This document shows, piece by piece, positions 1,551 through 64,000 of a DNA stretch of 64,000 nt (its first letter is position 1; every line of letters begins with the position of its first letter). A program made the position numbers and the translations under genes. Origin of the DNA: Paraphysomonas bandaiensis (Eukaryota > Protista > Chrysophyceae); assembly GCA_965644295.1 (NCBI GenBank), contig CBFFRP010000066.1, positions 248,001 to 312,000 on the forward strand, given 5' to 3'. The notes below the pieces were generated by a model. The model had not been told where the DNA came from, searched no databases, and saw nothing but the letters and a program-made list of their open reading frames with translations.

Positions 1551-4500
1551 CTAAAGTGCACGGCATAAAAAGTCATCATCTTCCCACTGTATTTCCTCCA
1601 CAACATCGCCAAAACCCTCCAGCCCTGGCTCATTTTCAGTTGCCACAGCATTCTCTGCACTTAGTGAACAGCTATCAATCGTCGTGATTGCATCTTTACC
1701 GAGTACCCACGCATCAGAAACAGATCTGTGGTTCATTAATCCACCCAACGAATTATTCGATTCCTCTAATTCAGTTTTCTCTTCATTGTGATAAAACTCT
1801 CCAGATCTTGTCCCTCCCACGCAGCGTGTTAAAATATCATCCTGCTTTTGGCTTTCCTGGCATTTTCCCAAACTTCCAATATCAACATGTAGTATCTTTT
1901 CCAACCACTCCGACACGACCCGGTCATCGAAGTCTGATTCATCTCCTATCAGGACAGGCCACCGCAACTCATTCTGCATCATATACATCGAATCAGGACC
2001 ATATTCATCACTATCCTCCCACGACACATGTCCATCATGCACCGTTCCAATATCTGATGGAGCGGACGAACACACACTTGAGTGTGCATGTGCAGAACCG
2101 TCACCTAGAACTACCCCTATAGATCCCGTGCGCTTATCTTCACATGTTGAAGGAGACGAACATCTCCGAATCCGTGAGGTAAACACGTTTGGCGGAGGAT
2201 GGGATTCTCTTTGCACCGTATCGGCATTACTCTTCCTCGGCTCGTTGTCGAAATCGTTCTCAGTGTCAGCAGGATGCACACTACGAGGTGATACAGACGG
2301 AGGGACAACTGAAACACTCTCGATGGATGGAAGAGTGTCTGCAAAATCTAATCGAGTTGATCCTCTACCTGAAATCGTCATAAAATGAAGTATGATAGCA
2401 ACTGTCACACATGGAACAAAGGCTAACACTGGATTCAGCCTGAAGAGTCGTACGTGTAAGACAACTATATAACCCAATCCAAATGTACTGACAATCTCCA
2501 GGACCATGTCTTGAATCGGTTCAGGCAGCTCAATCATACTCGTAACCGCAAATAACAGCACTCTACTGAAGGCTTGGGTCAAAATCTCAAACCTCGTATC
2601 GTAATTACGCTGCATTGATCGTGTCTTGGTCTTCACTGATTTCTTCGGCCACGGTGTGGAATATTGCTCTATTAGTCTACTCTCTGGAAGATTTGGATAC
2701 AATGACGCCAATCTGACGGAGGGGTAAAGATACCTTGCAGCGTTGAATCCGTCATCAGAAGCACTCAAAAGAGATCGGTAATTTTTCGAATTTTGTTTGA
2801 ATGAAACTATATCATGAGTCACTTTTCTTTTAATCTTCATGGCATCTTTCATTGTCATAAATGGAATGGCAATATGTTGAATAATTACCATACCAGTACA
2901 TACAAGTGTTATATTAAATATAAGCCACACAACAAAACTGTAAAACCAAGCCTTCTGCCGAGTTTCTGTTTGTCGCATTGCAAATAGGTATATATACAGC
3001 AACATCGCAGCCATCACCACAGAGAGAAAAATCCACGTGCAAACTTTCGCAAATAACGTAGCCTTTCTCTTGGGGGCATTATCACGGCGATCTTTAGCAT
3101 CCAATATCTGACCATTTGCACTGTCCATAAGATCCTTGATGAATAGATAAACTAACCTCTTGTTCTTATTTTCTCTGGTTATACTTGGATTACCAAAATA
3201 TAAAGCTTCGCGCTGTACAAGCTTACGAACATTACTTAACTCTGAGAGGATCACTGCTTGCCCAGTGTTTTCGGAATGCTCAGTAAAACAGGCGAATAAT
3301 TTCGTTAGTTTCAAAATCATGCTGTCTTTGACATCAGCAGTAAGTTCTTCCCCCCAAACACCTACAAAACAAAAAGCACTATCAGCACAATATATACCGT
3401 ATCTCAATAATACTTACAATCAAACTCCTCCCGCTCAGAATCCGTTAGTACACTTCGAAATCGTTTGATATCGTTCAAAAGACGGGCAAAATCTTCATGA
3501 AGAGTAGATTCATATACAGTACTCGAAATTTCAACCATTGGAACACTGTTATTATACGATGTGAAATTCTCAATATGTGCTGCGTCACGACTGTCCCCAC
3601 GCTCCAGCGTGCTAATTCTCGACAATTGTCTTCTCCGCTGTACTTTGCCCTCCTGTCTTGTCTCAGCCGATAAAACGAACATAATTAGACTTTGCAATGA
3701 TACCGCTATCGGTGTACTAATAGCTGCTGCAAATAGTGCTACCATGAGCACACGCTCGAAATCGTTACTTATCGGTCGAATATAGCAACTTTCTTCCGCA
3801 GCATCCCAGTAACACTTACTCTCACTTCTAGACAACGATGACTTCTCTTTCATGCACCTTTCCCTGCTAGTGTAGGTTTCACACGAACCATCATCAGGGT
3901 CAGCGATGTCATATGTGATGGCCTCAATGAAGAGCATCGTCAGAATGTTCATAAGAAGGGACATGATACGGATGGGACGTGAATATGTCGGTGAATAATG
4001 ACATACCACACCGATCCAGCGGTGATATATCTGTACTTCATTCGACACTTTCTTCCAGAGTGGAACTCGTCTCAATACCATCGGTAGCGCATCTTCGATC
4101 ATCTGCACATCTTTATTACTAACAGAGTTTTGAACCTTTGCTTGTGCCAACTTTGCCCTGCCAAATTGCGGCTGTACGGTTACATTACTGCTGGACCGAA
4201 ACACGCGTGCATTTATCGCATCCATTAAGGAAGATGATTTTGTTATTAACTGTCGACCGCTTCTACTGCTAGTGGGAGTAACTCTATTACGTCGTGATAA
4301 AAGTGATGATATCTTGTGAATGCCTTCTCTTTCTATACTCTTCAAAGAATCCCTTTCGGAGGCTTTATCACGATTGTCCAAATGATAGGCACCTATAACA
4401 GAGAGCATTCCAAAAAGTCCTATAAACCCAACCGTGAGTAGAACGCGAATACTTCCCACAACATCACGACCACTTAAATCATCTGCACTTGTCCATGTAT

Positions 4501-7500
4501 CCACAAACTCAATCAATATAGAGCGGCTCACTGAAGTAAAGTCAACAGACACCGCACTGCCGTCAGATGATTCTGACTCCTGCATTCGTCGCCGCTGCCT
4601 CTCCAAAGGAAGCGTGCATTCACATGTTATATTGGAGCCAGTGTATTCTATCATCGTACACGATATATTGTCGTCCCCAATAGCATCACACGTAACTGAG
4701 AAATCATGAACAGGGCATGAACGGGATACAGTTCCTGATGAAGACCCGTTACATGATAGAGTGATAACATCTCCTGCCGGACATTTGTACTCTTGCGATA
4801 TCGGTTCTCCTTTCTCACAATCTAAATAGAGAGTGTCGATATCACTGCCATTAGACACATGACTCTCGGGGATACTCTTCACATTCTGTAAGACAACAGT
4901 CACGTTACAGACATTAGATGAAGAAGAATTGCAGGGGGAGTTGTCAAAGCGAAGACCAAAAGGAACACTTAAAGCATACGCATCATTACTGAAGTGAGAC
5001 ACTAAGGATTCAACAACAGCAACTTTAAACGCAGTTTGATACGCACTCTGAGGTATCACTGCAGTCTGAGAGCTCGAGCCTACCAAATCTTCAAGAATAG
5101 TTCGAGGTGAGGTGACAGTAGAATTGTCCCGACCATCAAGAGATAAACACGTGAAGCGAAACAAATTACTCACTACATCAATTGAGTTCTGCCCTTCAAC
5201 CATATCCAGCAATATGAAGTCGTAGTAGGCTTGATATAATACAAAGGATGTTCTCCCGGCAGATGGGTCGGCATCAAGAACTAAGTCTAGAACAGTGCTC
5301 ACCGCAGTGATGTCTTCATAAGACAAGCCAAGATCAATGGCATCTGCAATGAACTCCACTGCCAAGGATGCTATCAAATCTTTCGTTTTATCCTCTATAC
5401 CTCGTGGATCGCTGCATATAGAGGCCAAACCTTCTATCCATGAGACAAGAGTATCTGCTGAAGGGTCTTCCAAGAGCGAGACACTACGAATCGCTTCCGC
5501 AAGCTGATGTCGTGTTTGTAAAGTCTGATTAAATTCATCTACGGTGTACTCACACGACTGGCCAGTGAAGCCATCGTAACAAACGCAGATAGCTTTGCAG
5601 TGAACACTCAGCACACTGCAAGTAGTGTACGTGACATTGACATCGTATACAGATACGTATTGGCAATACCCAGAATACGAACAATCTCCAGGACAGGCCT
5701 TAGGCATGACAACACATACATTGGAATCGCACATTTCCCACTGCGTGACGTCACAGTCACTGTTTCGGGTGCATGATGTCGGAATCGACGAACCCATTGA
5801 AAGGCGTCTTCTCTTGTCATCGCTCAAGTGTAAACAGTATGTATTCGCATGTCCACTTTCGCCAGCATACCCTTCCAAACACTCTCCACATGTACTCGCA
5901 GTAGTCGTGCAGTCGAATCTATTCAGACTTGTACAGTTAGGGGCGGAAGAGCAATTCACACTGTTTAGAATTGAGGCAGTGGTTGCAATTGCCTTTTTCA
6001 TCTCATCAGCATAGCCATTCGAGTTCGCAAGAGCATCTGTGAGGTAGTTTTGTTTGTCCTCTGCAGAGAGCTCCTGCCTCTTTACCTCCACAGACCGATA
6101 GGAAGCAATCTTGGCACCAAGAATGTCAAAAACTTGCACTCTCGTTCTGAGCATGAAATCCGCAGAATCTTTCCCTGCCGGCAAGTCGGTAGACACATAA
6201 GAGAGCTCCAACCGTGACCGGTGAACAAGATATGCTCCAGATGAGCCTTGATAAGCGAATTCGTAAGATAACGGAATATCAGAATCTTCCCACTTTGAAG
6301 CCAAAAATGTAAATTCCGTGACAAGCATTGTGCCTGTAGGTGGCGAAACAGAGTAGCTACCCGGATATGGAGGAGAATTAGTCGATATCGTTATGGCAGC
6401 AGTCGCAGCGTACCCTGTATCTAGGCTGCATGCAAGTTGGAAGCTAAATTTCGACTCCTGGGGTAGAGTGTTAGGTGGTAACACCAGACTCAACGTATAC
6501 ACTTCCCGAGTAGACGCTGGAGGTGCTATCGCTTTTGTCACTTCGGACAGTGAAACCGATTTCAGGTGTATTGACGGATCATCAACAGACCAAGTTGCTG
6601 TACCACCTGCGGCAACTTCCACGGTGGCAAGTAATTTGAATTTCTGAGAGGGATTGATTCGAGTCCCGCTTGACGATGAAAGGGTCACTAATGGAGCCAG
6701 AGATGGAAGAACAGTGACTACAACTGTTGCAGTAGAAGATCGAAAATCTTTTGTGTGAACAACCTTCACAGTCAGCTGATGAACGCTATTGATCATCGAA
6801 TCGCTGTTATTCTTAGGAACAGATACTGACACCTGTGAAGGTGAAATAGCTGACATAACCAAGTCGCTGACAGCTTTGTATGACGGATAGGTTTGTGCAC
6901 AGGTAAAGGCAAACGACAATTCCGCACCAATGCCTGTGGCTTCGTTATTATCTTCATCGTAGCTTCCAGACGCATCAACATATGTTGAGCTATCCGTTCG
7001 AACACCTCTACTAGATGATCCAGACACCTTCGCAACAACCAACCCTTTGACTACTGTCACAGACACCGAAGCAGAGGAATACTTCAACGAAACTGTGTGC
7101 TGAGCTGTCAGGGTTACAGTATATACAGTCCCAACTTCCAGAGTGTAAGGCAACAACTTGAACGTCCGCGGGTCACTCGCTTGAGAAACTAAGCTGAGAG
7201 GGGCCCCTTGTGCAAATATTTTCCAAGAATATTGTATATTCGCAGTGCTGGTCGCCCCACCACATACGGAGGTGTAAGCTTGACCAGTGACTGATAGCGG
7301 AGAATATCTGTACTGCAACCTCAGCTTCTTAGAATTCAAAGATACTACAGGAACATTCTCAGATGAAGAAACAACAAAAGAATGCGTTGACCTCCCACAA
7401 CCACCGATAAAATTACACATAACTACAGAAATACTGTATGCAAATCCTGGATACAGTACGGCCCGTGGCACTATCAAGACGCCTGATGCTTCGTAATTGG

Positions 7501-10500
7501 CGTTTAAATAAGCACTAACCAAGGAAACGTTCTCATGAGTTCCATAAACATAAAATGATACATTCACAAAGGGGCGCCCCCCTGATCCCTTGGATCCAGA
7601 AATATCTATAGGTAGTGAGTCACATGGTCCAATCTGAGAAGGTGATATAATCGATAGAGCGGGAACAATAGGCGTTTGCGGAGCATGTACTCTTATAGAG
7701 GCCAACGAACTAAATTGCCAAGTACTGCAAGCAGGACCGTTGTTCAGGACTTTACATTTAGCTCGAATCTTATTCGCTCGCAGTGTAATTACATCAGACA
7801 CACCAACTACTCCACTCGCCCCAGGAAATATCGACACTCTGGAATCATCAACCCATAGACACCTCGTATCCTTCTGAATACCGGGAAACGAAAATACATC
7901 CATGCAGTTGAAATTATTGGTATATCCTGCACGATTGGTGGGTGCATCAAACAGCACTAGAATCTTAGTTCCATCTTTAAAAAAGGTCGCAGATTTCAAT
8001 ACTGGAACCGCAGGTTCCGCATCAACAGCAAGCACAGTGATAAAACTTGAGGGAATATAGGAAATGACATAATCACTTGCTGATAATCCTGACATTGTAA
8101 ATACCAAGGCGTACACACCAGCGTGCTGGCGAATATACGCCACATACTCAACAGTTGACGAAGTGAAAACCACAGACGATGGGACAAACGGATATACTGT
8201 TGAGTTTTGAATGGCAGCCAATGATACATTTAAGTCATGAGGTATTACATCACCAGCATCGAGCTTCAATGCAACAGCCGTGTCTTCTCCACTCGAGTAC
8301 GAGGTCGCAATCAATTCAACATTTAAGGTTCGACAGCATGCCGTTTTTGCCGCTGATTTGGTCCCACGCATTAGATCATAATCCATTGGAGTGTCTAATG
8401 CTGAGTATGTAGCGCAGTACACATCGTAATCTGAAGACGCAATTAAACCGTCAATCATAAATGATACAGTCGTTGATGTAATCGATATCAAGTCATTGTG
8501 AAGAAGAAGAGTACTAACAGTAGAAGGAACAAATGAATCCGACGTTAGATACGCTGCGCAAACGAGAGACCCTTCCGGTATATCAACAGTTACTGTGGCT
8601 GTAATCGAGGTAGTTGTGCTGGATACAGTTATACTCAATATATCCGATGCCACTGATAACTCGGTAAAAGCTATGTGCAATATGTTTAATATCGTAGGGT
8701 AAAGGGGTTTCTCAACCTCATCACATGGACTATCGTATATGATCGCAGATGGTTTAACAGTTGATGGCGTGCATGGAGAGCTGGTACAGTTCGCACACAG
8801 GAACGCCGAAGTCATGCTCCCACAACGGCCCACCATCCAACTCGTATCATGACATTTGAAAGACATGGAAGAAGAAACGGTTGCCTTGGATACTGACAGA
8901 AGTGTGGCCACAATATCAGCAGCAGTTGCGCTATCGTTACAAGTCACAGTCACTGATTTGAGGTCAGCTGAATAGTCTGTTGTCGATATCATACTGAGAG
9001 AAGAAGCTGCATAGGTAATCAATGCTGTCGCAATATTGTCATTGACGAAAACGTCCCATTCGTCACATGTACCGTACCCACGTTCACTCCTGACTACTAA
9101 GCTCGCAAAAGTACTTCTCGTTCCGAGGTCAATGCCATTGATATATGTATCATATTTCTCTTTCCACAGCGTCATGAATGATATGGACGGAGACAGAGAA
9201 GGTACAAACGTAGGACTCATGGAGAGTGTTGGTGGCAAAGTTGGATAGTGAGTAACTGTTGGAACTGGCGCGTATGTTGGTCGGTAAGTAGGAGATGACG
9301 TAGGTGCCCTAGTAGGAATACTAGTAGGTAAAAATGTGGGAAACCTTGTAGGTAATATTGTAGGTTTAGATGATGGCACTGAGGTGGGATAAGAGCTGGG
9401 ATCATTAGTGGGGATGTATGTGGGTTGTCCAGTCGGCTCCCCACTTGGCTGCCAACTCGGAACTGCGGTTGGCATAGCAGATGGTATACTAGAAGGTTGA
9501 CTACTAGGCGAGGCACTTGGGAACGATGAAGGCTGCCCAGATGGGTTCTCAGAAGGCTGGCCACTAGGCTGTCCAGAAGGTTGGCCAGTGGGTACTCCTG
9601 AGGGTTTCCCAGAAGGTCGGCTAGTAGGCCCATCAGTAGGTTGTCTAGAAGGTTCATCCGTGGGTTGTCCTGTAGGTTCCCCTGAAGGCTGACCAGACGG
9701 TTCGCCTGTAGGTTGGCCCGTGGGTTGCCATGTAGGTTCCCCTGACGGCTGACCAGACGGTTCACCTGTGGGTTCTCTGGAAGGCTGAGCGCTAGGCTCC
9801 CCTGACGGCTGACCAGACGGTTCACCAGTAGGTTGGCCAGATGGTTGTCCTGTAGGTTCACCAGATGGCTGTCCAGTAGGGATCCCAGATGGCAGTCCAG
9901 TAGGGATCTCAGATGGCTCACCTGTGGGTTGACATGACGGCTGTTCTGTAGGTTCCCCTGACGGCTGACCAGACGGTTCACCTGTGGGTTCTCTGGAAGG
10001 CTGAGCGCTAGGCTCCCCTGACGGCTGACCAGACGGTTCACCAGTAGGTTGGCCAGATGGTTGTCCTGTAGGTTCACCAGATGGCTGTCCAGTAGGGATC
10101 CCAGATGGCAGTCCAGTAGGGATCTCAGATGGCTCACCTGTGGGTTGACATGACGGCTGTTCTGTAGGTTCACCAGATGGCTGTCTGGTAGGGATCCCAG
10201 ATGGCCCACCTCTGGGTTGACATGACGGTTGCCCTGAAGGGAAAGGAGTCGGTGTAGGTGTGGGTACCAAGCATTCATGATAGGTGTTTTGTGTGAGGTA
10301 GAATGTAGTTAATTTAGTCATTGTGCATAGCTCGGAAGGGTAGACACCTGTGAACCTATTGTCCTCACCCCTTAAAATTTGTAATTTGGTTAGATTGGAA
10401 AAAGAGTCGGGGAGAAAACCCGCCAAGGAATTGTCATATAGATAGAGATAACGAATAGAAATCAGCTGACCCATTGACGAGGGCAGTGTACCCGTTAAGA

Positions 10501-13500
10501 AATTGTAATATAGATAGAGATCAACAAGAGAATTAAGCTGACCCAATGATGAGGGCAGAGTACCGCTGAGATAGTTGGAACCAACATTCAAATATGTCAA
10601 TGCAGTCATATCACCTATAGATGACGGGAGAGTACCCGTTAAGGAATTGTTATGTATATAGAGTTGAACAAGAGAAGTCATCTGACCCAATGATGAGGGA
10701 AGAGGACCCGTTAAGTAATTGGAATATAAATCGAGATAACGAAGAGAATTCAGCTGGCCCAATGATGAGGGAAGAGGACCCGTTAAGTAATTGGAATATA
10801 GACCGAGATAAATAAGAGTAGTCAGCTGACCCAATGACGAGGGAAGAGTACCGTCGAGAGAGTTCTCACCAATATCAAAAGATGTCAATGCAGTCATATC
10901 ATTGACAAAAGACGGGAAAGAACCAGTTAAGTAATTGGAATGTAGGCCGAGATAATTAAGAGAAGTCAGCTGACCCAATGATGGAGAGAGAGTACTGTCG
11001 AAAGTGTTCTCATCAATATCAAAAGGTGTCATTGCAGTCATATCATCGATAAAAGTCGGGAGAGGACCCGATAAGAAATTGTAATGTAGGCCGAGATAAA
11101 TAAGAGTAGTCAGCTGACCCAATGATGAGGGAAGAGTGCCCGTTAAGTAATTGGAATTGAGATAGAGATAACAAAGAGAATTCAGCTGACCCAATGATGG
11201 AGAGAGAGTACTGTCGAAAGTGTTCTCATCAATATCAAAAGGTGTCATTGCAGTCATATCATCGATAAAAGACGGGAGCGGACCCGACAAGAAATTGTAA
11301 TGTAGGCCGAGATAAATAAGAGTAGTCAGCTGACCCAATGATGAGGGAAGAGGACCCGTTAAGTAATTGGAATTTAGATCGAGTTCAACAAGAGAAGTCA
11401 GCTGACCCAATGATGAGGGAAGAGTGCCCGTTAAGTAATTGGAATTGAGATAGAGATAACTAAGTGAATTCAGCTGACCCAATGATGGAGAGAGAGTACT
11501 GTCGAAAGTGTTCTCATCAATATCAAAAGGTGTCATTGCAGTCATATCATCGATAAAAGACGGGAGAGGACCCGTTAAGTAATTGGAATTTAGATCGAGT
11601 TCAACAAGAGAAGTCAGCTGACCCAATGATGAGGGAAGAGTGCCCGTTAAGTAATTGGAATTGAGATAGAGATAACTAAGTGAATTCAGCTGACCCAATG
11701 ATGGAGAGAGAGTACTGTCGAAAGTGTTCTCATCAATATCAAAAGGTGTCATTGCAGTCATATCATCGATAAAAGACGGGAGAGGACCCGACAAGAAATT
11801 GTAATGTAGGCCGAGATAAATAAGAGTAGTCAGCTGACCCAATGATGAGGGAAGAGGACCCGTTAAGTAATTGGAATTTAGGTCGAGATCAACAAGAGAA
11901 GTCAGCTGACCCAATGATGAGGGAAGAGTGCCCGTTAAGTAATTGGAATTGAGATAGAGATAACAAAGAGAATTCAGCTGACCCAATGATGGAGAGAGAG
12001 TACTGTCGAAAGTGTTCTCATCAATATCAAAAGGTGTCATTGCAGTCATATCATCGATAAAAGACGGGAGAGGACCCGACAAGAAATTGTAATGTAGGCC
12101 GAGATAAATAAGAGTAGTCAGCTGACCCAATGATGAGGGAAGAGTACCCGTTAAGTAATTGGAATTTAGATCGAGATCAACAAGAGAAGTCAGCTGACCC
12201 AATGATGAGGGAAGAGTGCCCGTTAAGTAATTGGAATTGAGATAGAGATAACAAAGAGAATTCAGCTGACCCAATGATGGAGAGAGAGTACTGTCGAAAG
12301 TGTTCTCATCAATATCAAAAGATGTCATTGCAGTCATATCATCGATAAAAGACGGGAGAGGACCCGATAAGAAATTGTAATGTAGGCCGAGATAAATAAG
12401 AGTAGTCAGCTGACCCAATGATGAGGGAAGAGTACCCGTTAAGTAATTGGAATTTAGATCGAGTTCAACAAGAGAAGTCAGCTGACCCAATGATGAGGGA
12501 AGAGTGCCCGTTAAGTAATTGGAATTGAGATAGAGATAACTAAGTGAATTCAGCTGACCCAATGATGGAGAGAGAGTACTGTCGAAAGTGTTCTCATCAA
12601 TATCAAAAGGTGTCATTGCAGTCATATCATCGATAAAAGACGGGAGAGGACCCGTTAAGTAATTGGAATTTAGATCGAGTTCAACAAGAGAAGTCAGCTG
12701 ACCCAATGATGAGGGAAGAGTGCCCGTTAAGTAATTGGAATTGAGATAGAGATAACTAAGTGAATTCAGCTGGCCCAATGATGGAGAGAGAGTACTGTCG
12801 AAAGTGTTCTCATCAATATCAAAAGGTGTCATTGCAGTCATATCATCGATAAAAGACGGGAGAGGACCCGATAAGAAATTGTAATGTAGGCCGAGATAAA
12901 TAAGAGTAGTCAGCTGACCCAATGATGAGGGAAGAGTACCCGTTAAGTAATTGGAATTTAGATCGAGTTCAACAAGAGAAGTCAGCTGACCCAATGATGA
13001 GGGAAGAGTGCCCGTTAAGTAATTGGAATTGAGATAGAGATAACTAAGTGAATTCAGCTGACCCAATGATGGAGAGAGAGTACTGTCGAAAGTGTTCTCA
13101 TCAATATCAAAAGATGTCATTGCAGTCATATCATCGATAAAAGACGGGAGAGGACCCGTTAAGTAATTGGAATTTAGATCGAGTTCAACAAGAGAAGTCA
13201 GCTGACCCAATGATGAGGGAAGAGTGCCCGTTAAGTAATTGGAATTGAGATAGAGATAACTAAGTGAATTCAGCTGACCCAATGATGGAGAGAGAGTACT
13301 GTCGAAAGTGTTCTCATCAATATCAAAAGGTGTCATTGCAGTCATATCATCGATAAAAGACGGGAGAGGACCCGATAAGAAATTGTAATGTAGGCCGAGA
13401 TAAATAAGAGTAGTCATCTGACCCAATGATGAGGGAAGAGTACCTGTTAAGGAATTGTATTGTAGACCGAGGTCAACAAGAGAAGTCAGCTGGCCCAATG

Positions 13501-27435: not shown

Positions 27436-27520
27436 CAAGCATTCATGGTAAGCGGCTTGTGTGAGGTAGAAGGTTGATAATTGAGTCATTGTGCATAGCT
27501 CGGAAGGGTACACTTGTGAA

Positions 27521-36253: not shown

Positions 36254-36316
36254 GATGGTTAAGTATATGAATATATGGAGAAATGATACACTAACATATA
36301 CAAACACAGCTCACAA

Positions 36317-36711: not shown

Positions 36712-36773
36712 TGTATGAGTTATGTATGTATATATGCATACAATAGAACACATTTTAGTGTCTATCAGTCGAA

Positions 36774-51207: not shown

Positions 51208-51294
51208 ATGAATCCATCCATTCGCTGTGTATGTCTGCTTATCAGTTTATTTAACTCTCGTATCGTAACACTCACAGTTGCCTCAGTTGTCTCT

Positions 51295-54200
51295 CAAGAG
51301 GCAGCGCTGTGTGACTTCATTCAGGCGACTGATGTTACCTCCATATGGTCTGAGTGGACCTGTGCGGATGTGGGGAATAAGTGCAGTTTCACTGGAGTCA
51401 CTTGTTCAGGATCGAACATAACCAGAGTGGACTTATATGATGGTGGGATATCAGGATCTCTCCCGCCATCATTCGGTAATATGACCTCACTGACATATTT
51501 GAATATTGGTGGCAACTCTCTCACCGGTACTTTGCCCTCATCACTGGGTCAGCTGACTTCTCTTAGTTATCTCTATCTATATTCCAATTCCTTAACAGGT
51601 ACTCTCCCCTCATCATTGGGTCAGATGACTTATCTTGGTGTTCTCGCTCTATATTACAATTCCTTGACGGGTCCTCTCCCCTCATCATTGAGTCAGATAA
51701 CTTCTATTCGTTATCTCCATCTATATCGAAATTCCATAACGGGTCCTCTCCCCTCATCTATCGGTGATATGACTGCATTGACATATTTGAATATTGGTGA
51801 CAACTCTCTCATCGGTACTCTCCCCTCATCATTGGGTCAGATGACTTCTCTTGTTAGTCTCTATCTATATGGCAATGCCATTTCGGGTCCTGTCCCCGAC
51901 TCTTTTTCCAGTCTCACCAAATTACAACTTCTAAGGGGTGAGGACAATATGTTCACAGGTGTCTACCCCTACGAACTGTGCACAATGACTCAATTAACAA
52001 CATTCTACCTCACACAAACCAGTTACCATGAGTGCTTGAGACCCACATCTGCACCGACTTCATTCCCTTCAGTGCAACCGACAATTAACCTGGAAGAGTC
52101 AGCGCTGTGTGACTTTATTCAGGCGACTGATGTTACCTCCATACGGTCTGAGTGGACCTGTGCGGATGTGGGGAATAAGTGCAGTTTCAGTGGAGTCACT
52201 TGTTCAGGATCGCACATTACCTCAGTGGACTTATCTGATGATGGGATATCAGGATCTCTCCCCTCATCTATCGGTGATATGACTGCATTGACATCTTTGA
52301 GTATTGGTTCCAACTCTCTCAACGGTAGTCTGCCCTCATCATTGGGTCAGCTGACTTCTCTTAGAGTTCTCGCCCTACATTACAATTCCTTAACGGGTCA
52401 TCTCCCTTCATCTATCGTTGATATGACTGCATTGACATATTTGAGTATTGGTTACAACTCTCTCAGCGGTACACTGCCCTCGTCATTGGGTCAACTGACT
52501 TCTCTTCGTGCTCTCCATCTATATTACAATTCCTTAACGGGTCCTCTCCTGTCATCTATCGGTGATATGACTGCATTGACATATTTGCATATTGGATCCA
52601 ACTCTCTCAGCGGTACGCTGCCCTTATCATTGTGTCAGCTGACTTCTCTTCGTTATCTCGGTCTACATGTCAATTCCATAACGTATACTCTCCCAACCTC
52701 TATCGGTGATATGACCGCACTGACACATTTGGATATTCGCTCCAACTCTCTGACAGGTACTCTTCCCTCATCATTGGGTCAGCTGACCTCTCTTGTTCAT
52801 CTCAGTCTACATGACAATTCCTTAACGGGCCCTCTCCACTCATCCATTGGTGATATGACAGCATTGACAAATTTGCATATTAGTTCCAACTCTCTCTACG
52901 GTACTCTTCCCTCATCATTGGGTCAGCTGACTTCTCTTCGTTATCTCCATCTATATGGCAATTCCTTAGCGGGTCCTCTCCCGTCGTCAATCGGTGATAT
53001 GACTGCATTGACATATTTGAATATTGGTTCCAACTTTTTCAACGGCACTCTCCCGTCATCATTGGGTCAGCTGACTTCTCTTAGTTATATCTATCTATAT
53101 TACAATTTCATAACAGGTCCCCTCCCCTCATCATTGGGTCAGATGACTTCTCTTGTTGAGCTCTATCTACATGACAATTCCTTAACGGGTTTTCTCCCTG
53201 ACTCTTTTTCCAGTCTAACCAAATTACAACTTCTGAGTGGTGAGGGCAATATGTTTACCCGTGTCTACCCTTCCGATCTATGCACAATGACTCAATTAAC
53301 AACATTCTTTCTTACACAAAACACTTACCATGAATGCTTGAGGCCCACATCCGCACCGACTTCTTTCCCTTCAGGGCAACCGACAATTAACCTGGAAGAG
53401 TCAGCGCTGTGTGACTTTATTCAGGCGACTGATGTTACCTCCAAGCGGACTGAATGGACTTGTGGGAATGTGGGTAATAAATGCAATTTCAGTGGAGTCA
53501 CCTGTTCAGGGTCGCACATTACCTCAGTGGACTTATATGATGATGGGATATCAGGATCTCTCCCCTCATCTATCGGTGATATGACTTCACTTGTTGATCT
53601 CCGTCTACATTCCAATTCCTTAACAGGATCTATCCCGCCCTCTATCGGTGATATGACTGCATTGACACTTTTGAGTATTCGCTCCAACTCTTTCATCGGT
53701 ACTCTGCCCTCATCATTGGGTCGGCTGACTTCTCTTAGTTTTCTCGGCCTACATTACAATTCCTTGACGGGTCCTCTCCCCCAATCATTGGGTCAGATGA
53801 CTTCTCTTACTTATCTCGGCTTACATTTCAATTCCATAACGGGTCCTCTCCTGTCATCTATCGGTGATATGACTGCACTGGTATATTTGGTTTTTGAATC
53901 CAACTCTCTCAACGGTACTCTGCCATCATCATTAGGTCAATTGACTTCCCTTCGTCATCTCCATCTATTTGGTAATTCCATAGCGGGTCATCTCCCCTCA
54001 TCTATCGGTGATATGACTGCATTGACACAATTGAATATTGGTGGCAACTCTTTCATCGGTACTCTGCCCTCATCATTGGGTCGGCTGACTTCTCTTAGTT
54101 ATCTCCATGTACATTACAATTCCTTGACGGGCCCTCTGCCCCCATCATTGGGTCAGATGACTTCTCTTACTTATCTCGGTCTACATTTCAATTCCATAAC

Positions 54201-57200
54201 GGGTCCTCTTCCCTCATCTATCGGTGATATGACTGCATTGGCATATTTGATTTTTGAATCCAACTCTCTCAACGGTACCTTGCCCTCATCACTAGGTCAG
54301 CTGACTTCTCTTAGTTCTCTCTATCTAAATTCCAATTCCATAACGGGCCCTCTCCCGTCATCTTACGGTGATATGACTGCATTGACATATTTGGATATTG
54401 GTGGCAACTCTCTCAACGGTACTCTCCCCTCATCATTGGGTCAGCTGATTTCTCTTCGTGAACTCTATCTACATGACAATTCCTTAATGGGTCCTCTCCC
54501 AGACTCTTTTTCCAGTCTCACCAAATTACGACTTCTAAGGGGTGAGAGCAATATGTTCACAGGTGCCTACCCTTACGAGCTGTGCACAATGACTCAATTA
54601 ACAACGTTCTACCTCACACAAAACAGTCATCATGAATGCTTGAGACCCACATCTGCACCGATTCCCTTCCCTTCAGTGCAACCGACAATTTACCTGGAAG
54701 AGTCAGCGCTGTGTGATTTCATTCAGGCGACTGATGTTACCTCCGTGCGTTCTGAATGGACCTGTGCGGATGTGGGTAATAAATGCAGTTTCAGTGGAGT
54801 CACTTGTTCAGGATCGCACATAACCAGAGTGGACTTATCTGATGATGGCATATCAGGATCTCTGTCGTCATCTATCGGTGATATGACTGCATTGACATAT
54901 TTGAATATTCACTCCAACTTTCTCATCGGTAGTCTGCCCTCATCATTGGGTCAGCTGACTTCTCTTGTTGATCTCAGGCTAGCTGTCAATTCCATAACGG
55001 GTCCTCTCCCCTCATCTATTGGTGATATGACAGCATTGACATATTTGAATATTGGTTCCAACTCTCTCAACGGTGCTCTGCCATCATCATTGGGTCAACT
55101 GTCTTCTCTTAATTATCTCTATCTACGTGTCAATTCCATAACGGGTCCTCTTCCGTCATCTATCGTTGATATGACTGCATTGACATATTTGAATATTGGT
55201 GACAACTCTCTCAGTGGTACTCTGTCCTCATCATTGGGTCAACTGTCTTCTCTTAATTATCTCTATCTATATGGCAATTCCTTAATGGGGACTTTCCCCT
55301 CATCATTGGGTCAGCTGACTTCTCTTCGTGAACTCTATCTACATTCCAATTCCATAACGGGTCCTCTCCCCTCATCTATCGGTGATATGACTGCATTGAC
55401 ATATTTGAATATTCGCTCCAACTCTCTCAACGGTACTCTCCCCTCATCATTGGGTCAGCTGACTTCTCTTCGTTTTATCAATGTACATGACAATTTCTTG
55501 AGGGGCCCTCTCCCTGACTCTATTTCCAGTCTCACCAAATTACAACTTTTAAGGGTTGATGGCAATATGTTCACACGTGTTTACCCTTACGAGCTGTGCA
55601 CAATGACTCAATTAACAACATTCTACCTCACACAAACCAGTTACAATGAATGCTTGAGACCCACATCTGCACCGACTCCTTTCCCTTCAGGACAACCGAC
55701 AATTAACCTGGAAGAGTCAGCGCTGTGTGACTTCATTCAGGCGACTGATGTTACCTCCGTACGTTCTGAATGGACCTGTGCGGATGTGGGTAATAAATGC
55801 AGTTTCAGTGGAGTCACCTGTTCAGGATCAGACATAACCAGAGTGAGCTTATATGATGATGGGATATCAGGATCTCTGTCGTCATCTATCGGTGATATGA
55901 CTGCATTGACATATTTGAGTATTGGTTCCAACTCTCTCAACGGTGCTCTGCCATCATCATTGGGTCAGATGACCGCATTGACATATCTCCATATTGCTGA
56001 CAACTCTCTCGCCGGTACTCTGCCGTTATCATTGGGTCAGATGACTTCACTTGTTGAGCTCCGTCTATATGGCAATTTCTTGACGGGTCCTCTCCCGTCA
56101 TCTATCGGTGATATGACTGCATTGACATATCTGCATATTGCTGACAACTCTCTCAACGGTACTCTGCCCTCATCATTGGGTCAGCTGACTTCACTTGTTC
56201 ATCTCAGTCTATATGGCAATTCCTTAATTGGTACTCTCCCTTCATCTATCGGTGATATGACCGCATTGACATATTTGAATATTGGTTCCAACTCTCTCAC
56301 CGGTACTCTGCCTTCATCATTGGCTCAGCTGACTTCTCTTCGAGCTCTCCGTCTATATGGCAATTCCTTAACGGGTCCTCTCCTGTCATCTATCGGTAGT
56401 GAATGTCTGATTATTTAGCAATAGGCGTTGAGACCTTGCATCAATTAGTGGCTAGAAGAATGCTAGTCATACTAGTTAGACCACTACCCGTAATCATCTA
56501 TCGGTAATATGACTGCATTGACATATTTAAATATTGATGGCAACTCCTTCATCGGTACTCTCCCCTCATCATTGGGTCAGATGACTTCTCTTGGTCATCT
56601 CTATCTCACTGGCAATTCCATATCAGGATCTCTACCCTCATCCATAGGTGATATGACTACATTGACATATTTGCATATTGGTTCCAACTCTCTCAACGGT
56701 GCTCTGCCATCATCTTTGGGTCAGCTGACTTCTATTCGTTATCTCCATCTATATGGAAATTCCATAACGGGTCCTCTCCCCTCATCTATCGGTGATATGA
56801 CTGCATTGACATATTTGAATATTGGTGGCAACTCTCTCATCGGTACTATTCCCTCATCATTGGGTCAGATGACTTCTCTTGTTAGTCTCTATCTATATGG
56901 CAATGCCATTTCGGGTCCTGTCCCCGACTCTTTTTCCAGTCTCACCAAATTACAACTTTTAAGGGGTGAGGGCAATATGTTTACAGGTGTCTACCCCTAC
57001 GAGCTGTGCACAATGACTCAATTAACAACATTCTACCTCACACAAACCAGTTACAATGAATGCTTGAGACCCACATCTGCACCGACTTCATTCCCTTCAG
57101 TGCAACCGACAATTAACCTGGAAGAGTCAGCGCTGTGTGACTTTATTCAGGCGACTGATGTTACCTCCATACGGTCTGAGTGGACCTGTGCGGATGTGGG

Positions 57201-60200
57201 GAATAAGTGCAGTTTCACTGGAGTCACTTGTTCAGGATCCAACATAACCAGAGTGGACTTATATGGTGATGGGATATCAGGATCTCTCCCCTCATCTATC
57301 GGTGACATGACCGCATTGACATATTTGAGTGTTGGTTCCAACTCACTCATCGGTACTCTGCCCTCATCACTGGGCCAGATGACTTCTCTTAGTGTTCTCG
57401 CTCTATATTACAATTCCTTGACGGGTCCTCTCCCCTCATCATTGAGTCAGATAACTTCTATTCGTTATCTCCATCTATATGGAAATTCCATAACGGGTCC
57501 TCTCCCCTCATCTATCGGTGGTATGACTGCATTGACATATTTGGATATTGGTGGCAACTCTCTCATCGGTACTATTCCCTCATCATTGGGTCAGATGACT
57601 TCTCTTGTTAGTCTCTATCTATATGGCAATGCCATTTCGGGTCCTGTCCCCGGCTCTTTTTCCAGTCTCACCAAATTACAACTTCTAAGGGGTGAGGGCA
57701 ATATGTTCACAGGTGTCTACCCTTACGAGCTGTGCACAATGACTCAATTAACAACATTCTACCTCACACAAAACACTTACCATGAATGCTTGAGGCCCAC
57801 ATCTGCACCGACTTCATTCCCTTCAGGGCAACCGACAATTAACCTGGAAGAGTCAGCGCTATGCGACTTCATTGCGGCGACGAATATTTCCTCCAAACGG
57901 ACAGAGTGGACCTGCGGGAATGTGGGGAATAAATGCATCTTCAGTGGAGTCACCTGTTCAGTATCGAACATTATCAGGATGGACTTATATAATTTTGATT
58001 TTGCAGGATCACTCCCGTCCTCTGTTGGTGATATGACGGGATTGACATATTTAGAAATTGGACGCAACTCTCTCATCGGTACTCTCCCCTCATCATTGGG
58101 TCAGCTGCTTTCTCTTAGTTATCTCTATATATATGACAATTCCATAACGGGTTCTCTCCCGTCCTCTATTGGTGAAATGACTACATTGATAACTTTGAGT
58201 ATTGGCTACAACTCTCTCATCGGTACTCTGCCATTATCATTGTGTCAACTGACTTCTCTTAGTAAACTCCGTCTAAATGACAATTCCATAACGGGTCCTC
58301 TCCCGTCGTCAATCGGTGATATGACTGCATTGACATATTTGGATATTAGTTCCAACTCTCTCTACGGTACTCTTCCCTCATCATTGGGTCAGATGACTTC
58401 TCTTGGTTATCTCCATCTATATGGCAATTCCGTGACGGGTCCTCTCCCGTCATCTATCGGTAATATGACTGCATTGACATATTTGGATATTGGTTCCAAC
58501 TCTCTCATCGGTACCCTCCCCTCGTCATTGGGTCAACTGACTTCTCTTAGTTATCTCTATCTATATGACAATTCCTTGACGGGTCCTCTCCCGTCCTCAA
58601 TCGGTGATATGACTGCATTGACATATTTGGATATTAGTTCCAACTCTCTCTACGGTACTCTTCCCTCATCATTGGGTCAGATGACTTCTCTTGGTTATCT
58701 CCATCTATATGGCAATTCCGTGACGGGTCCTCTCCCGTCATCTATCGGTAATATGACTGCATTGACATATTTGGATATTGGTTCCAACTCTCTCATCGGT
58801 ACCCTCCCCTCGTCATTGGGTCAACTGACTTCTCTTAGTTATCTCTATCTATATGACAATTCCTTGACGGGTCCTCTCCCGTCCTCAATCGGTGATATGA
58901 CTGCATTGACATATTTGGATATTAGTTCCAACTCTCTCAACGGTGCTCTGCCCTCATCATTGGGTCAGCTGACTTCTCTTGTTGAGCTCTATCTCTCTGG
59001 CAATTCCATAACAGGCTCTCTCCCTGACTATTTTTCCAGTCTAAGCAAATTACAAGTTCTAAGGGTTGATGGCAATATGTTCACACGTGTCTACCCTTAC
59101 GAGCTGTGCACAATGACTCAGTTAACAACATTCTACCTCACACAAAACAGTCATCATGAATGCTTGAGACCCACATCTGCACCGACTCCTTTCCCTTCAG
59201 GGCAACCGACAATTAACCTGGAAGAGTCAGCGCTGTGTGACTTCATTCAGGCGACTGATGTTACCTCCGTACGTTCTGAATGGACCTGTGCGGATGTGGG
59301 TAATAAATGCAGTTTCAGTGGAGTCACCTGTTCAGGATCAGACATAACCAGAGTGAGCTTATATGATGATGGGATATCAGGATCTCTGTCGTCATCTATC
59401 GGTGATATGACCGCATTGACATATTTGAGTGTTGGGTCCAACTCTCTAATCGGTAGTCTGCCCTCATCATTGGGTCAGATGACCGCATTGACATATCTCC
59501 ATATTGCTGACAACTCTCTCGCCGGTACTCTGCCGTTATCATTGGGTCAGCTGACTTCACTTGTTGAGCTCCGTCTATATGGCAATTTCTTGACGGGTCC
59601 TCTCCCGTCATCTATCGGTGATATGACTGCATTGACATATCTGCATATTGCTGACAACTCTCTCAACGGTACTCTGCCCTCATCATTGGGTCAGCTGACT
59701 TCACTTGTTCATCTCAGTCTATATGGCAATTCCTTAATTGGTACTCTCCCTTCATCTATCGGTGATATGACCGCATTGACATATTTGAATATTGGTTCCA
59801 ACTCTCTCACCGGTACTCTGCCTTCATCATTGGCTCAGCTGACTTCTCTTCGAGCTCTCCGTCTATATGGCAATTCCTTAACGGGTCCTCTCCTGTCATC
59901 TATCGGTAATATGACTGCATTGACATATTTAAATATTGATGGCAACTCCTTCATCGGTACTCTCCCCTCATCATTGGGTCAGATGACTTCTCTTGGTCAT
60001 CTCTATCTCACTGGCAATTCCATATCAGGATCTCTACCCTCATCCATAGGTGATATGACTACATTGACATATTTGCATATTGGTTCCAACTCTCTCAACG
60101 GTGCTCTGCCATCATCTTTGGGTCAGCTGACTTCTATTCGTTATCTCCATCTATATGGAAATTCCATAACGGGTCCTCTCCCCTCATCTATCGGTGATAT

Positions 60201-61320
60201 GACTGCATTGACATATTTGAATATTGGTGGCAACTCTCTCATCGGTACTATTCCCTCATCATTGGGTCAGATGACTTCTCTTGTTAGTCTCTATCTATAT
60301 GGCAATGCCATTTCGGGTCCTGTCCCCGACTCTTTTTCCAGTCTCACCAAATTACAACTTTTAAGGGGTGAGGGCAATATGTTTACAGGTGTCTACCCCT
60401 ACGAGCTGTGCACAATGACTCAATTAACAACATTCTACCTCACACAAACCAGTTACAATGAATGCTTGAGACCCACATCTGCACCGACTTCATTCCCTTC
60501 AGTGCAACCGACAATTAACCTGGAAGAGTCAGCGCTGTGTGACTTTATTCAGGCGACTGATGTTACCTCCGTACGGTCTGAGTGGACCTGTGCGGATGTG
60601 GGGAATAAATGCAGTTTCAGTGGAGTCACTTGTTCAGGATCGCACATAACCAGAGTGAGCTTACCTAATGATGGGATATCAGGATCTCTGTCGTCATCTA
60701 TTGGTGATATGACTGCATTGACATCTTTGAGTATTCGCTCCAACTCTCTCAACGGAACTCTCCCCTCATCATTGGGTCAGCTGACTTCTCTTCGTTATCT
60801 CCATGTATATGACAATTCCATAACGGGCCCTCTCCCAACCTCTATCGGTGATATGACAGCATTGACATATTTGGATATTCGCTCCAACTCTCTCATCGGC
60901 ACTCTTCCCTCATCATTGGGTCAGCTGACTTCTCTTGTTGAGCTCTATCTACGTGACAATTCTATAACCGGCCTTCTTCCGTCATCTATCGGTAATATGA
61001 CTGCATTGAGGTATTTGAGTATTATTTCCAACTCTCTCATCGGTACTATTCCCTCATCATTTGGCCACCTGACTTCTCTTGTCGGTCTCTATCTGTCACA
61101 CAATTCCATAACAGGCCCTCTCCCCGACTCTTTTTCCAGTCTAACTAATTTACAACTTCTGAGTGGTGAGAGCAATATGTTTACAGGTGTCTACCCCTAC
61201 GAGCTGTGCACAATGACTCAATTAACAACATTCTACCTCACACAAACCAGTTACCATGAGTGCTTGAGACCCACATCTGCACCGACTTCATTCCCTTCAG
61301 TACAGCCATCAGGTGAACCT
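51295..61320 (+). repeat. Nine tandem cap-LRRn-cap modules starting at 51295, 52093, 53395, 54697, 55711, 57121, 57847, 59221, 60523
   Basis: Each begins (Q/E)E(A/S)ALCDFI and ends LCTMTQLTTF.LTQ...ECLRPTSAP; lengths 798, 1302, 1302, 1014, 1410, 726, 1374, 1302, ~798 bp. Confidence 0.93.
56399..56493. mobile_element. 95-bp insertion with 13-bp TSD TCATCTATCGGTA (probable truncated non-LTR/SINE-like insert)
   Basis: TSD at 56386-56398 and 56494-56506; the sister module has the empty site CTGTCATCTATCGGTAATATG at ~59893-59913; module 5 is exactly 108 bp longer than module 8. Confidence 0.88.
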
Positions 61321-63000
61321 ACAGGACAGCCATCAGTTAAACCCACTGGGCAACCGTCTGACCAACCTAGCCGACAGCCTTCAGGTCAGCCATCTGGTAA
61401 ACCAACAGGACAACCATCATATCAACCCACAGGTGAGCCATCTGGGATTCCTACAGGACAGCCATCTCGTGAACCAACAGCACAACCATCTGGGCAACCT
61501 ACAGGACAGCCATCAGGTCATCCGTCATGTCAACCCACTGGACAGCCGTCTGGCCAACCTAGCAGACAGCCATCTGGGATCCCTACTGGACAGCCATCTC
61601 GTGAACCAACAGGACAACCATCTGGGCAACCTACAGGACAGCCATCAGGTCAGCCGTCATATCAACCCACTGGACAACCTTCTGGCCAACCTAGCAGACA
61701 GCCTTCAGGTCAGCCATCTGGTAAACCAACAGGACAACCATCAGGTCAGCCATCTAGTGAACCAACAGGACAGCCATCATATCAACCCACAGGTGAGCCA
61801 TCTGGGATTCCTACAGGACAGCCATCTCGTGAACCAACAGGTGGGCCATCTGGGACCCCTACTGGACAGCCATCTGGTGAACCTACAGGACAGCCGTCAT
61901 GTCAACCTACAGGACAGCCATCTGGTCTACCCACAGGTGGGCCATCTGGGACCCCTACAGGACAGCCATCTGGTGAACCTACAGGACAACCATCTGGGCA
62001 ACCTACAGGACAGCCATCAGGTCAGCCGTCATATCAACCCACTGGACAACCTTCTGGCCAACCTAGCAGACAGCCTTCAGGTCAGCCATCTGGTAAACCA
62101 ACAGGACAACCATCAGGTCAGCCATCTAGTGAACCAACTGGACAGCCATCATATCAACCCACAGGTGAGCCATCTGGGATTCCTACAGGACAGCCATCTC
62201 GTGAACCAACAGCACAACCATCTGGGCAACCTACAGGACAGCCATCAGGTCATCCGTCATGTCAACCCACTGGACAGCCGTCTGGCCAACCTAGCAGACA
62301 GCCATCTGGGATCCCTACTGGACAGCCAACAGGGGAGCCATCTCGGATCCCTACAGGACAGCCATCTGGGATCCCAACAGGACAGCCATCTGGCCAATCT
62401 AGTGAACGACCAACAGGACAACCATTAGGTCAGCCATCTAGTGAACCAACAGGACAGCCATCTGGGAGCCCCACAGGTGAGCTATCTGGTATCCCTACAG
62501 GACAGCCTTCTGGTGAACCAACAGCACAACCATCTGGGCAACCTACAGGACAGCCATCAGGTCAGCCGTCATGTCAACCCACTGGACAGCCGTCTGGCCA
62601 ACCTAGCAGACAGCCATCTGGGATCCCTACTGGACAGCCATCTGGTGAACCAACAGGACAGCCATCAGGGGAGCCATCTGGTGAACCTACAGGAAAACTA
62701 TTAGGTCAGCCATCTGGTGAACCTACAGGACAACCATTAGGTCAGCCATCTAGTGAACCAACAGGACAGCCATCAGGTGAACCTGCAGGACATCCATTAG
62801 GTGAGCCATCTGGGATCTCTACAGAACAGCCATCAGGTCAACCCACAGGTGAGCCATCTGGGATCCCCACTGGACAGCCATCTGGGAGCCCCACAGGTGA
62901 GCCATCTGGTATCCCAACAGGTCAGCCATCATGTCAACCTACAGGACAGACACCAGGGCTATCTACTGGACAGCCGTCTGGGCAACAACATTCGACTTTT
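61300..63000 (+). repeat. PT-type stalk repeats of gene 4
   Basis: PTGQPSG tetrapeptide repeats with larger internal duplications. Confidence 0.9.
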
Positions 63001-64000
63001 CCATCGCAGCATGCTCCTTTAGTTGCACATTTACCTGAGATATTACGTATGGACTGGACTGCGTATCGAGATCGCGTTACACTTTCAATTCAGCTCTCAA
63101 ACAGAGGCTATGTCTATTGTGCAAGCGTTGAATCTATGGTAATCGTCGTTACTGTTAATTCTGTAATTTCTGCAAACAATTTTGACTATGTGGACGACGC
63201 TTCTGTTAACGCCTCAATCTCGATTACATCTCTGACACCGTCCACGAATTACACACTTTATTGCGTCACGCAAAACAATGACTTGTTAGCTACCTCGTAT
63301 GAAGAAATGCTCTCGAATGCAGTCGTTTGGAAAACTCTATGTTGTAAGAGCATATATGTGGATTTGAATATGTTTGTGCTGCAAGCGTATAGTGTGGGAT
63401 GGAATATGGTTGCAGTTACCCTTTCGGCAGCTCCATCATCCGGCAGTGATGTGTGGATATCTGCTGAGGTGTCAAATAGCAGTGGTTCGTACACTGTATC
63501 CCCCTTTCTGGATGACACTGTGACTGTTGCGCATTCCTCATGGTCGAAAACTCATTTCTTCACTGTCGCCAACTGTGCGCCGGGACTGTACACACTACAG
63601 GTGACGATGATGGATTTTTCAGTGCAGCAGGAGTATGATGTGGTCTTCCGAAGTGGGCAGTCGTTCACTGTAGAGCCCTCTGCAGTAGAACCCAGCACCC
63701 CGCGTTTAACGTCAGCACAGTTCTCGAAGAGTGGTGAGTCCGCTGTCCTGAAATTTGATTCACCTACGGACAAGGCGCGATATTCCTCATATTTCAAGTG
63801 CTCTCGTCTCCTGAATGTAGCTGGGGCCTCATCGTCAGACTGTCTTTGGACCTCGGCCACCACACTTACTGTGTATTTCAAAGGGCCTCTTCTTCCTGAA
63901 GTGGGTGATAGTGTGGTGCTACTACCGGGTCAACTGCGAGCGCAATGCACCTCCACATCATCAGAGTGTACAGGCTGGGCTACTGTGAACAGAACAGAGA

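What the first reader, a model, noticed from the sequence alone, without database searches (positions are those of the whole stretch)
1551..64000. Cluster of variable-LRR, polycystin-1-like receptors with interchangeable heads: candidate diversified recognition system in a protist
Seen: four genes share the layout leader-cap-LRRn-cap-PT stalk-REJ-like-EGF-GPS-like-multiTM; within each pair the bodies are nearly identical while LRR number (47, 26, 15, ~101) and LRR surface residues differ completely. Established: 24-aa LxxLxLxxNxLxGxxPxxLGxL repeats are the plant-type class used in RLK/RLP ectodomains, and cap-LRR-cap-Thr/Pro stalk is also the layout of agnathan VLRs; REJ/GPS/TM belongs to the polycystin-1 family, whose animal members carry only a small LRR region. 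Inference: a constant-body / variable-head receptor family diversified by recombination, possibly for prey, pathogen or self recognition. I do not recognise this combination as a described system, but cannot search.
Basis: partly seen in the sequence, partly recalled or inferred. Interest (0 to 1): 0.9.

Follow-up and report, generated by a model that had tools for sequence, protein, structure and literature searches.

The report
Fast-evolving LRR-tipped protist surface receptors
A marine single-celled eukaryote, probably a golden alga relative, carries a cluster of giant surface-protein genes whose leucine-rich-repeat tips change fast at their predicted binding face while the membrane base stays constant, so they are likely a repertoire for recognising other cells such as prey or parasites.

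Summary
Real. Four genes (A–D) share the layout leader, capped plant-type LRR head (47, 26, 15, 101 repeats), Pro/Thr stalk, then a REJ body; A and C continue to a Cys-rich region and about 6–7 membrane helices, and A has a GAIN fold (Foldseek top 8 all GAIN). A/B bodies are 98% identical. The first 150 nt of all four differ at 0–3 sites, though A and C bodies share only 27% identity. Concave LRR positions show pN/pS 2.3–2.6 against 0.2–0.4 at framework positions, above all 300 matched neutral simulations. A-type transcripts are spliced in three studies. Corrections: B has a frameshift, D a 108-nt insertion and nine separately capped modules; the GPS lacks the self-cleavage motif (0 of 100 homologues; 64 carry RRxL); no polycystin channel or PLAT domain was found. 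The body belongs to a large family (1,418 clusters) with other heads. Best reading: a germline recognition repertoire diversified by repeat shuffling and selection, like Podospora HNWD and Ectocarpus ROCO genes, on a GAIN chassis; ligand unknown, no sign of programmed rearrangement. The scan noted one LRR-stalk-GAIN receptor in another genome. New variant of a known kind.

The parts
1551..13978 (-). Gene A, intact, 4,123 aa after removal of one 56-nt GT-AG intron (3362-3417)
   Evidence: spliced joint in contigs of X3, X15 and X16
13697..13978 (-). A leader (probable signal peptide, inferred from hydrophobicity), Cys-rich N-cap and first partial LRR
   Evidence: first 150 nt differ by 0-3 nt among the four genes
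10385..13696 (-). A head: 46 full 24-aa plant-type LRRs built from tandem triplets and quadruplets; 17 distinct concave strings
9181..10270 (-). A Pro/Ser/Thr/Gly stalk, 363 aa
5984..7252 (-). A REJ domain (PF02010)
   Evidence: E 6.8e-43
4514..5542 (-). A GAIN domain (approximate limits from the model); a basic RRRM loop follows the CxC strand where HL|T would stand
2301..4470 (-). A membrane region, about 6-7 predicted helices with long loops; no known family
17201..29632 (-). Gene B, tandem duplicate of A (15.65-kb period); 26 LRRs, 870-aa stalk
27510..27514 (-). 2-nt loss in B's C-cap; the head frame ends after 729 aa (young pseudogene, secreted head, or assembly error; not tested)
36774..46987 (+). 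Gene C, second body type (27% aa to A); 15 LRRs; about 3,285 aa if five GT-AG introns in 44436-45798 are removed (exact sites inferred; 16 combinations give an open frame)
37056..38063 (+). C head: 14 full LRRs, all with different concave strings
51208..64000 (+). Gene D (runs off the window): nine tandem N-cap/LRR/C-cap modules, 575-aa stalk (61264-62989), start of a C-type body
56386..56506 (+). 108-nt insertion in D module 5 with a 13-nt target-site duplication and in-frame stops; the duplicate module 8 lacks it; unspliced product 1,736 aa

Best explanation
These genes encode large predicted cell-surface receptors whose LRR heads are likely a ligand-recognition repertoire, diversified in the germline by repeat duplication, loss and recombination, with excess amino-acid change at the predicted binding face. 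Shown: the anatomy, the head-body contrast, selection on concave sites, recombination among repeats, near-identical leaders on two old body types, and splicing of A-type transcripts. Inferred: a signal peptide puts the head outside; the glycosylated Pro/Thr stalk lifts it above the surface; the concave Tyr/Ser/Gly/Asp/His/Arg face binds foreign cell-surface ligands (prey bacteria, parasites or viruses); REJ-GAIN couples binding or pulling force to an unclassified multi-helix membrane domain; a protease cuts at the RRxL loop in place of GAIN self-cleavage. The arms-race partner is most likely another organism.
For: Concave positions pN/pS 2.43 (all spanning-tree edges) and 2.55 (close edges) against 0.22-0.40 for core and convex positions, Fisher p 2e-8 and 8e-4. 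Codon-model omega about 2 (59 T-type units, 2dL 5.8) and about 3 (75 C-type units, 2dL 15.2) against 0.3-0.5 on the convex side. Observed 2.28 (own sites) and 1.56 (all sites) exceed the maxima 1.77 and 1.20 of 300 matched neutral simulations; each gene alone gives more than 1. Positions 5, 7 and 8 are 21% Y, 19% G, 17% S, 13% D, 9% H. A/B body pN 0.0085 and pS 0.033, whereas their C-caps differ at 7 of 41 synonymous sites, as far apart as caps of the other genes. Leaders differ by 0-3 of 150 nt across bodies with 27% identity. Association decays with distance in C-type units (p 0.0005) and doublets (p 0.001). The spliced joint appears in 3 of 4 runs laid, with the flank 968-1134 uncovered. 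Two of four copies are broken, as in birth-and-death families.
Against: No ligand or phenotype is known. Association decay was not significant for all units together (p 0.13) or T-type units (p 0.088). The D5/D8 duplicate pair shows 0 concave amino-acid changes against 4 elsewhere. No unit is identical between genes, so exchange between loci is not very recent or comes from unseen paralogues. Single-locus-depth contigs of other labelled samples (X1, X3) differ from the C head by only 0-3 letters per 103-156 nt in four pieces, and the three changes checked in one piece were two silent and one framework change; one piece differs at 13 of 142. Recombination can inflate omega in tree-based models. 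Head transcription rests on a run only guessed to be RNA.
Confidence: 0.6

Rival explanations
1. The heads serve self, kin or gamete recognition; selection comes from mate choice or allorecognition rather than prey or parasites.
For: REJ-GPS proteins are linked to gametes: Ectocarpus Esi0130_0068 is male-gamete specific with positively selected sites (PMC4700764); sea-urchin SpREJ (PMC1934368); REJ-like Cryptosporidium GGC proteins (10.64898/2026.10.13.757955). Podospora HNWD genes, the closest mechanistic match, act in allorecognition.
Against: A-type transcripts occur in field metatranscriptomes of three studies and in one run guessed to be RNA, which suggests ordinary vegetative expression. 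Diversity lies among paralogues and repeats of one genome.
Confidence: 0.2
2. The LRR head is a structural spacer or generic adhesin; its variation is repeat instability under relaxed constraint, with no specific ligand.
For: Lengths vary from 15 to 101 repeats; A's head is largely three or four units recopied (17 strings in 46 units); two of four genes are broken; stalk length varies as freely (363-870 aa).
Against: Relaxed constraint gives omega of at most about 1; the observed values exceed all 300 matched simulations and the excess is confined to the concave face.
Confidence: 0.1
3. A programmed, VLR-like system rewrites heads within cell lineages, using tandem modules such as those in D as donors.
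For: Cap-LRR-cap-stalk layout; identical leaders on different bodies; nine capped modules in D; contigs of sequencing runs show joints that skip whole numbers of repeats (288, 360, 432 nt).
Against: Each gene carries a complete germline head; no empty locus, free cassette array or recombinase or deaminase gene was seen in the window; no unit is identical between genes; the joints are expected from paralogues and have sides of only 21-37 letters.
Confidence: 0.06
4. Repeat counts and breaks are partly assembly artefacts (collapsed or expanded repeats, two haplotypes placed in tandem).
For: A's head holds a 339-nt and D a 675-nt exact repeat; the B frameshift is a two-letter loss of the kind long reads make; A/B differ by only 2%.
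Against: 104 distinct concave strings in frame; run X5 contigs match C-head pieces with 0 differences over 167-293 nt (possibly the source sample); A and B differ in stalk, caps and upstream DNA; the D insertion has a target-site duplication.
Confidence: 0.04

Closest known systems
Podospora HNWD/het-D, het-E WD40 receptors (PMC1805685, abstract read)
   Same: Near-identical repeat units shuffled within and between family members; variable repeat number; a few surface codons per repeat under positive selection; pseudogenes.
   Different: Intracellular NACHT-HET proteins with WD40 propellers; here extracellular LRRs on a REJ-GAIN membrane body, function not shown.
Brown-algal ROCO LRR GTPases (PMC3341825 abstract and sections 11, 19; PMC11378527 abstract)
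   Same: Stramenopile; 24-aa, 72-nt LRR units; shuffling, birth and death, positive selection on 3-4 concave sites; proposed immune role.
   Different: One LRR per exon with exon shuffling and alternative splicing, ROC-COR GTPase; here intron-free arrays on a membrane receptor of a probable unicell.
Ectocarpus Esi0130_0068 REJ-GPS-6/7TM protein (PMC4700764, passages)
   Same: Stramenopile REJ plus GPS plus 6-7 TM; positive selection in the ectodomain.
   Different: 1,427 aa, single gamete-specific gene; the passages read mention no LRR head or stalk. Homology of its TM part to ours was not tested.
Polycystin-1 / SpREJ family (PMC1934368, passages)
   Same: REJ then GPS/GAIN before the first TM; varied N-terminal binding domains.
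   Different: No PLAT, no TRP-like channel, no PKD or C-type lectin domains; GPS without the cleavage motif.
Adhesion GPCRs (PMC12716839, passages)
   Same: GAIN fold with shuffled N-terminal adhesion domains.
   Different: The membrane part shows no match to GPCR structures; the paper restricts the GAIN plus aGPCR-7TM module to holozoans.
Plant LRR-RLK/RLP ectodomains and agnathan VLRs (VLR features recalled, not from a call)
   Same: Plant-type 24-aa consensus (best named hits are plant RLKs); cap-LRR-cap-Thr/Pro stalk layout.
   Different: No kinase; no sign of somatic assembly; none of 104 head-search hits carries REJ.

Membership tests
Polycystin-1/PKD1-REJ family | REJ domain | tested here: met
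   Pfam PF02010 147 and 146 bits on A and C
Polycystin-1/PKD1-REJ family | GAIN/GPS before TM1 | tested here: met
   Foldseek top 8 hits all contain GAIN, E 2.5e-7 to 3.3e-4, though TM-scores are low (target-normalised 0.15-0.51); Pfam GPS not hit
Polycystin-1/PKD1-REJ family | PLAT/LH2 domain after TM1 | tested here: not met
   No Pfam hit; models show helices and disorder after TM1. The paper notes five of ten SpREJs also lack it
Polycystin-1/PKD1-REJ family | 11 TM with a TRP-like last six | tested here: not met
   5-7 hydrophobic segments; no Foldseek match with E below 0.58; only a weak CatSper2 row, E 0.007. The VIA-align search could not be run
Adhesion GPCR | HL|T/S autoproteolysis motif and TxFAVLM tethered agonist | tested here: not met
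   0 of 100 homologues with a GPS-region hit (of 159 searched) have HL[T/S/C]; 64 of 100 have RRxL/RRL against 143 of 4,800 background windows
Adhesion GPCR | Class B2 seven-helix bundle | tested here: not met
   Model of homologue P0003's membrane region (pTM 0.74) has no GPCR match
HNWD/ROCO-type diversifying repeat receptors | Positive selection on binding-face codons | tested here: met
HNWD/ROCO-type diversifying repeat receptors | Repeat exchange within genes and variable repeat number | tested here: met
   Chimeric half-units in A, association decay in 2 of 4 tests; 15-101 repeats
HNWD/ROCO-type diversifying repeat receptors | Exchange between family members | tested here: inconclusive
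   Leaders and caps point to it; no identical unit between genes
HNWD/ROCO-type diversifying repeat receptors | Allelic head polymorphism among strains | tested here: inconclusive
   Short contigs cannot separate alleles from paralogues
Ectocarpus ROCO LRR genes | One LRR per exon; ROC-COR domain | tested here: not met
   LRR arrays lie in uninterrupted reading frames; no GTPase hit
Agnathan VLR | Incomplete germline gene assembled somatically from flanking cassettes (recalled) | not testable with these tools
   Needs clone-level long reads; the window shows complete germline heads

The most novel reading that the evidence does not exclude
A single-celled marine protist keeps an adaptive-like receptor repertoire: LRR heads are rewritten by targeted exchange within cell lineages, drawing on tandem capped modules, and are displayed on a new class of protease-activated GAIN receptors with an unknown membrane fold.
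Probability: 0.08. Interest if true: 0.95.

Novelty: new variant of a known kind. Interest (0 to 1): 0.63.

Why it matters
How phagotrophic protists tell prey, parasites and kin apart is poorly known. This cluster gives concrete candidate receptors with a measurable arms-race signal and simple, expressible binding heads. It also exposes a very large, mostly unnamed REJ-GAIN family (1,418 clusters at 50% identity) with exchangeable heads, an RRxL loop where GAIN self-cleavage normally sits, and a membrane domain with no solved-structure match. This parallels adhesion GPCRs and polycystins outside animals.

Tried and rejected
No whole genome is held, so no genome-wide count was possible. Two scans of metagenome contigs found nothing: 37 pattern matches, none confirmed, and 0 leader matches. 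Rfam gave 0 hits. The Atlas gave unnamed clusters at 0.90-0.94 and a GPS cluster at 0.82 for the GAIN/TM part, and nothing useful for exon 2. VIA-align searches were never accepted, machine busy. A Pfam scan of alignment A3 exceeded the size limit and was not repeated. Module parsing mis-read one D module and was corrected. Splice sites for C were wrong and were corrected. The first neutral simulations (150 runs) had too high a synonymous divergence and were redone. A DGR-like mutator was considered because concave codons keep their third letter; changes go in all directions and no reverse transcriptase or template was seen in the window, so selection explains it better. The 99-nt exact C/D tract is not unusual at about 4% body divergence and was not counted as conversion. 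Leader contig depth of 792 against 92-107 for single-locus contigs in X1 hints at more copies, but depth is not a copy number. Runs X19-X24 (share 0.11 or less) were not used. The B frameshift and D insertion were not checked against reads. Thirteen in-frame splice routes around the insertion exist on paper; none was tested.

Full report
What is there. Six-frame translation and repeat parsing show four genes with the same start, MNPSIRC: A (13978 to 1551, minus), B (29632 to 17201, minus), C (36774 to 46987, plus) and D (51208 onward, plus, leaving the window). Each has a probable signal peptide (inferred, no predictor run), a Cys-rich N-cap, 24-aa LxxLxLxxNxLxGxLPxxLGxLT repeats, a C-cap and a Pro/Ser/Thr/Gly stalk. 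D differs in kind: nine complete N-cap/LRR/C-cap modules joined by short linkers. A splices to 4,123 aa through one 56-nt intron. C gives about 3,285 aa with five inferred GT-AG introns. B has a 2-nt loss in its C-cap, and D has a 108-nt insertion with a 13-nt target duplication; neither was checked against reads.

Organism. No genome is held. Twenty of 24 listed runs hold the A body, including marine metagenomes and metatranscriptomes. The best hit of the neighbouring trehalase that I could tie to a named organism is the chrysophyte Pedospumella encystans, 45% identical. A marine chrysophyte-like stramenopile is therefore likely, not shown.

The body. Pfam finds only REJ. An AlphaFold model of A's last 894 exon-1 residues (pLDDT 74.9) matches GAIN-containing structures in its top 8 Foldseek rows. 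The GPS strand is followed by a basic loop instead of HL|T: of 159 homologues searched, 100 gave a GPS-region hit; none has the motif and 64 have RRxL/RRL, against 3% of background windows. A has RRRM there and C has QRRV. Removal of RXL segments by an unknown protease is reported for diatom proteins (PMC5525289, passages), so protease cleavage is a reasonable inference. The membrane region, modelled on homologue P0003 (pTM 0.74), has no Foldseek match better than E 0.58. The body is neither a polycystin channel nor an adhesion GPCR by these tests.

The wider family. A 1,200-aa body query hits 1,418 clusters at E 1e-30 or better. None of the 159 body homologues retrieved has a plant-type LRR, but many are N-terminally incomplete. 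Those with heads carry tandem FG-GAP propellers on PT linkers (9 of 159), NHL repeats, a sortilin-like propeller or a glycosyltransferase (17 were scanned with Pfam). So head swapping is a family trait, and D's tandem layout mirrors the tandem propellers. None of 104 hits to the cap-linker-cap query carries REJ (proteins up to 2,000 aa only).

Head versus body. A and B bodies differ at 38 of 4,481 non-synonymous and 47 of 1,408 synonymous sites. Their C-caps differ at 11 of 133 and 7 of 41, as much as caps from C and D. The first 150 coding nt differ by 0-3 letters among all four genes, although A and C bodies are 27% identical. One head family was therefore copied onto two old bodies recently, or is kept alike by exchange. 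Against very recent exchange, no 72-nt unit is identical between genes.

Selection. On 134 distinct core units, concave positions 2, 3, 5, 7, 8, 10 give pN/pS 2.43 (2.28-2.56 with other tie-breaking), core 0.40 and convex 0.35. A codon model gives omega near 2 and 3 for the two unit types. In 300 simulations with neutral concave sites, with and without recombination, the ratio never exceeded 1.77 (own sites) or 1.20 (all sites) against 2.28 and 1.56 observed; each gene alone exceeds 1. One duplicate pair (D5/D8) shows no concave amino-acid change; another (D1/D6) shows 4 concave and 3 other changes and no silent ones. The twelve terminal cap-adjacent units were left out of these counts.

Recombination. 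Association between sites decays with distance in C-type units (p 0.0005) and in doublets (p 0.001), but not significantly in T-type units or all units. A contains the same first half-unit joined to two different second halves. Unequal crossing-over in a 72/144-nt tandem array explains the lengths.

Expression and variation. Contigs of X3, X15 and X16 (three studies) skip exactly the 56-nt intron, X18 shows no such joint, and the flank 968-1134 is uncovered in all four. Contigs about 90% identical to A lie beside near-identical ones in the same runs, pointing to more paralogues or related strains. On the C head, X5 pieces match the window exactly; X1 and X3 share small differences. Alleles and paralogues cannot be separated with these short contigs.

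Comparison with print. The mechanism resembles Podospora HNWD genes (PMC1805685, abstract) and brown-algal ROCO LRRs (PMC3341825, abstract and sections 11 and 19; PMC11378527, abstract). The chassis resembles Ectocarpus Esi0130_0068 (PMC4700764, passages) and SpREJ/PKD1 (PMC1934368, passages). PMC12716839 (passages) notes GAIN domains outside holozoans in other genes. A chrysophyte genomics preprint (10.64898/2026.10.27.762293, term search) has no REJ or LRR in its main text; its supplements were not seen and may list such domains. A search for REJ domain plus leucine-rich repeat plus stramenopile gave 0 papers; the listings showed no description of this combination. The library lacks most subscription papers. 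VLR features are recalled. The scan's own notes include a single LRR-stalk-GAIN-7TM gene in Plasmodiophora (e1-7152159, unchecked here), so the architecture alone has been noted on other DNA.

Verdict. A real, at least partly expressed family of LRR-stalk-REJ-GAIN multi-TM receptors with heads under diversifying selection. It most likely works as a germline recognition repertoire for foreign cells (0.6), with mating or self recognition the main rival (0.2). It is a new variant of a known kind; interest 0.63.

Noticed in passing
window 31800-33552 (+): Multi-exon sugar transporter gene (Pfam Sugar_tr, E 1e-55) between the two receptor pairs.
   Followed up: no
window 35093-36310 (-): Trehalase exon (Pfam E 2e-84), divergent from gene C; used for the lineage guess.
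   Followed up: partly
window 30321-30801: About 480 nt of (TACA)n microsatellite upstream of gene B.
   Followed up: no
window 294-594, 47702-48017, 49173-49425: Dispersed non-coding repeat of about 300 nt, 71-84% alike; very high contig depth and many loose ends in RNA runs, probably a small mobile element.
   Followed up: no
window 56399-56493: 95-nt insert with a 13-nt target duplication and no other copy in the window; possibly a truncated retro-element.
   Followed up: partly
window 36425-36773 and about 50808-51207: C and D share upstream sequence; A and B do not share theirs beyond a few dozen letters, and B's last 50 nt upstream resemble D's.
   Followed up: partly
P0075, P0102, P0120, P0126, P0140: Relatives of 4,000-7,400 aa with tandem FG-GAP propellers on PT linkers ahead of the same REJ body; whether these heads also diversify was not tested.
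   Followed up: no
P0231: Planoprotostelium protein with LRR, GPS and kinase domains: another LRR-GPS pairing outside animals.
   Followed up: no
window 14985-15105 and 48430-48643: A 121-nt inverted repeat between A and B, and a near-perfect 93-nt-period tandem repeat between C and D.
   Followed up: no
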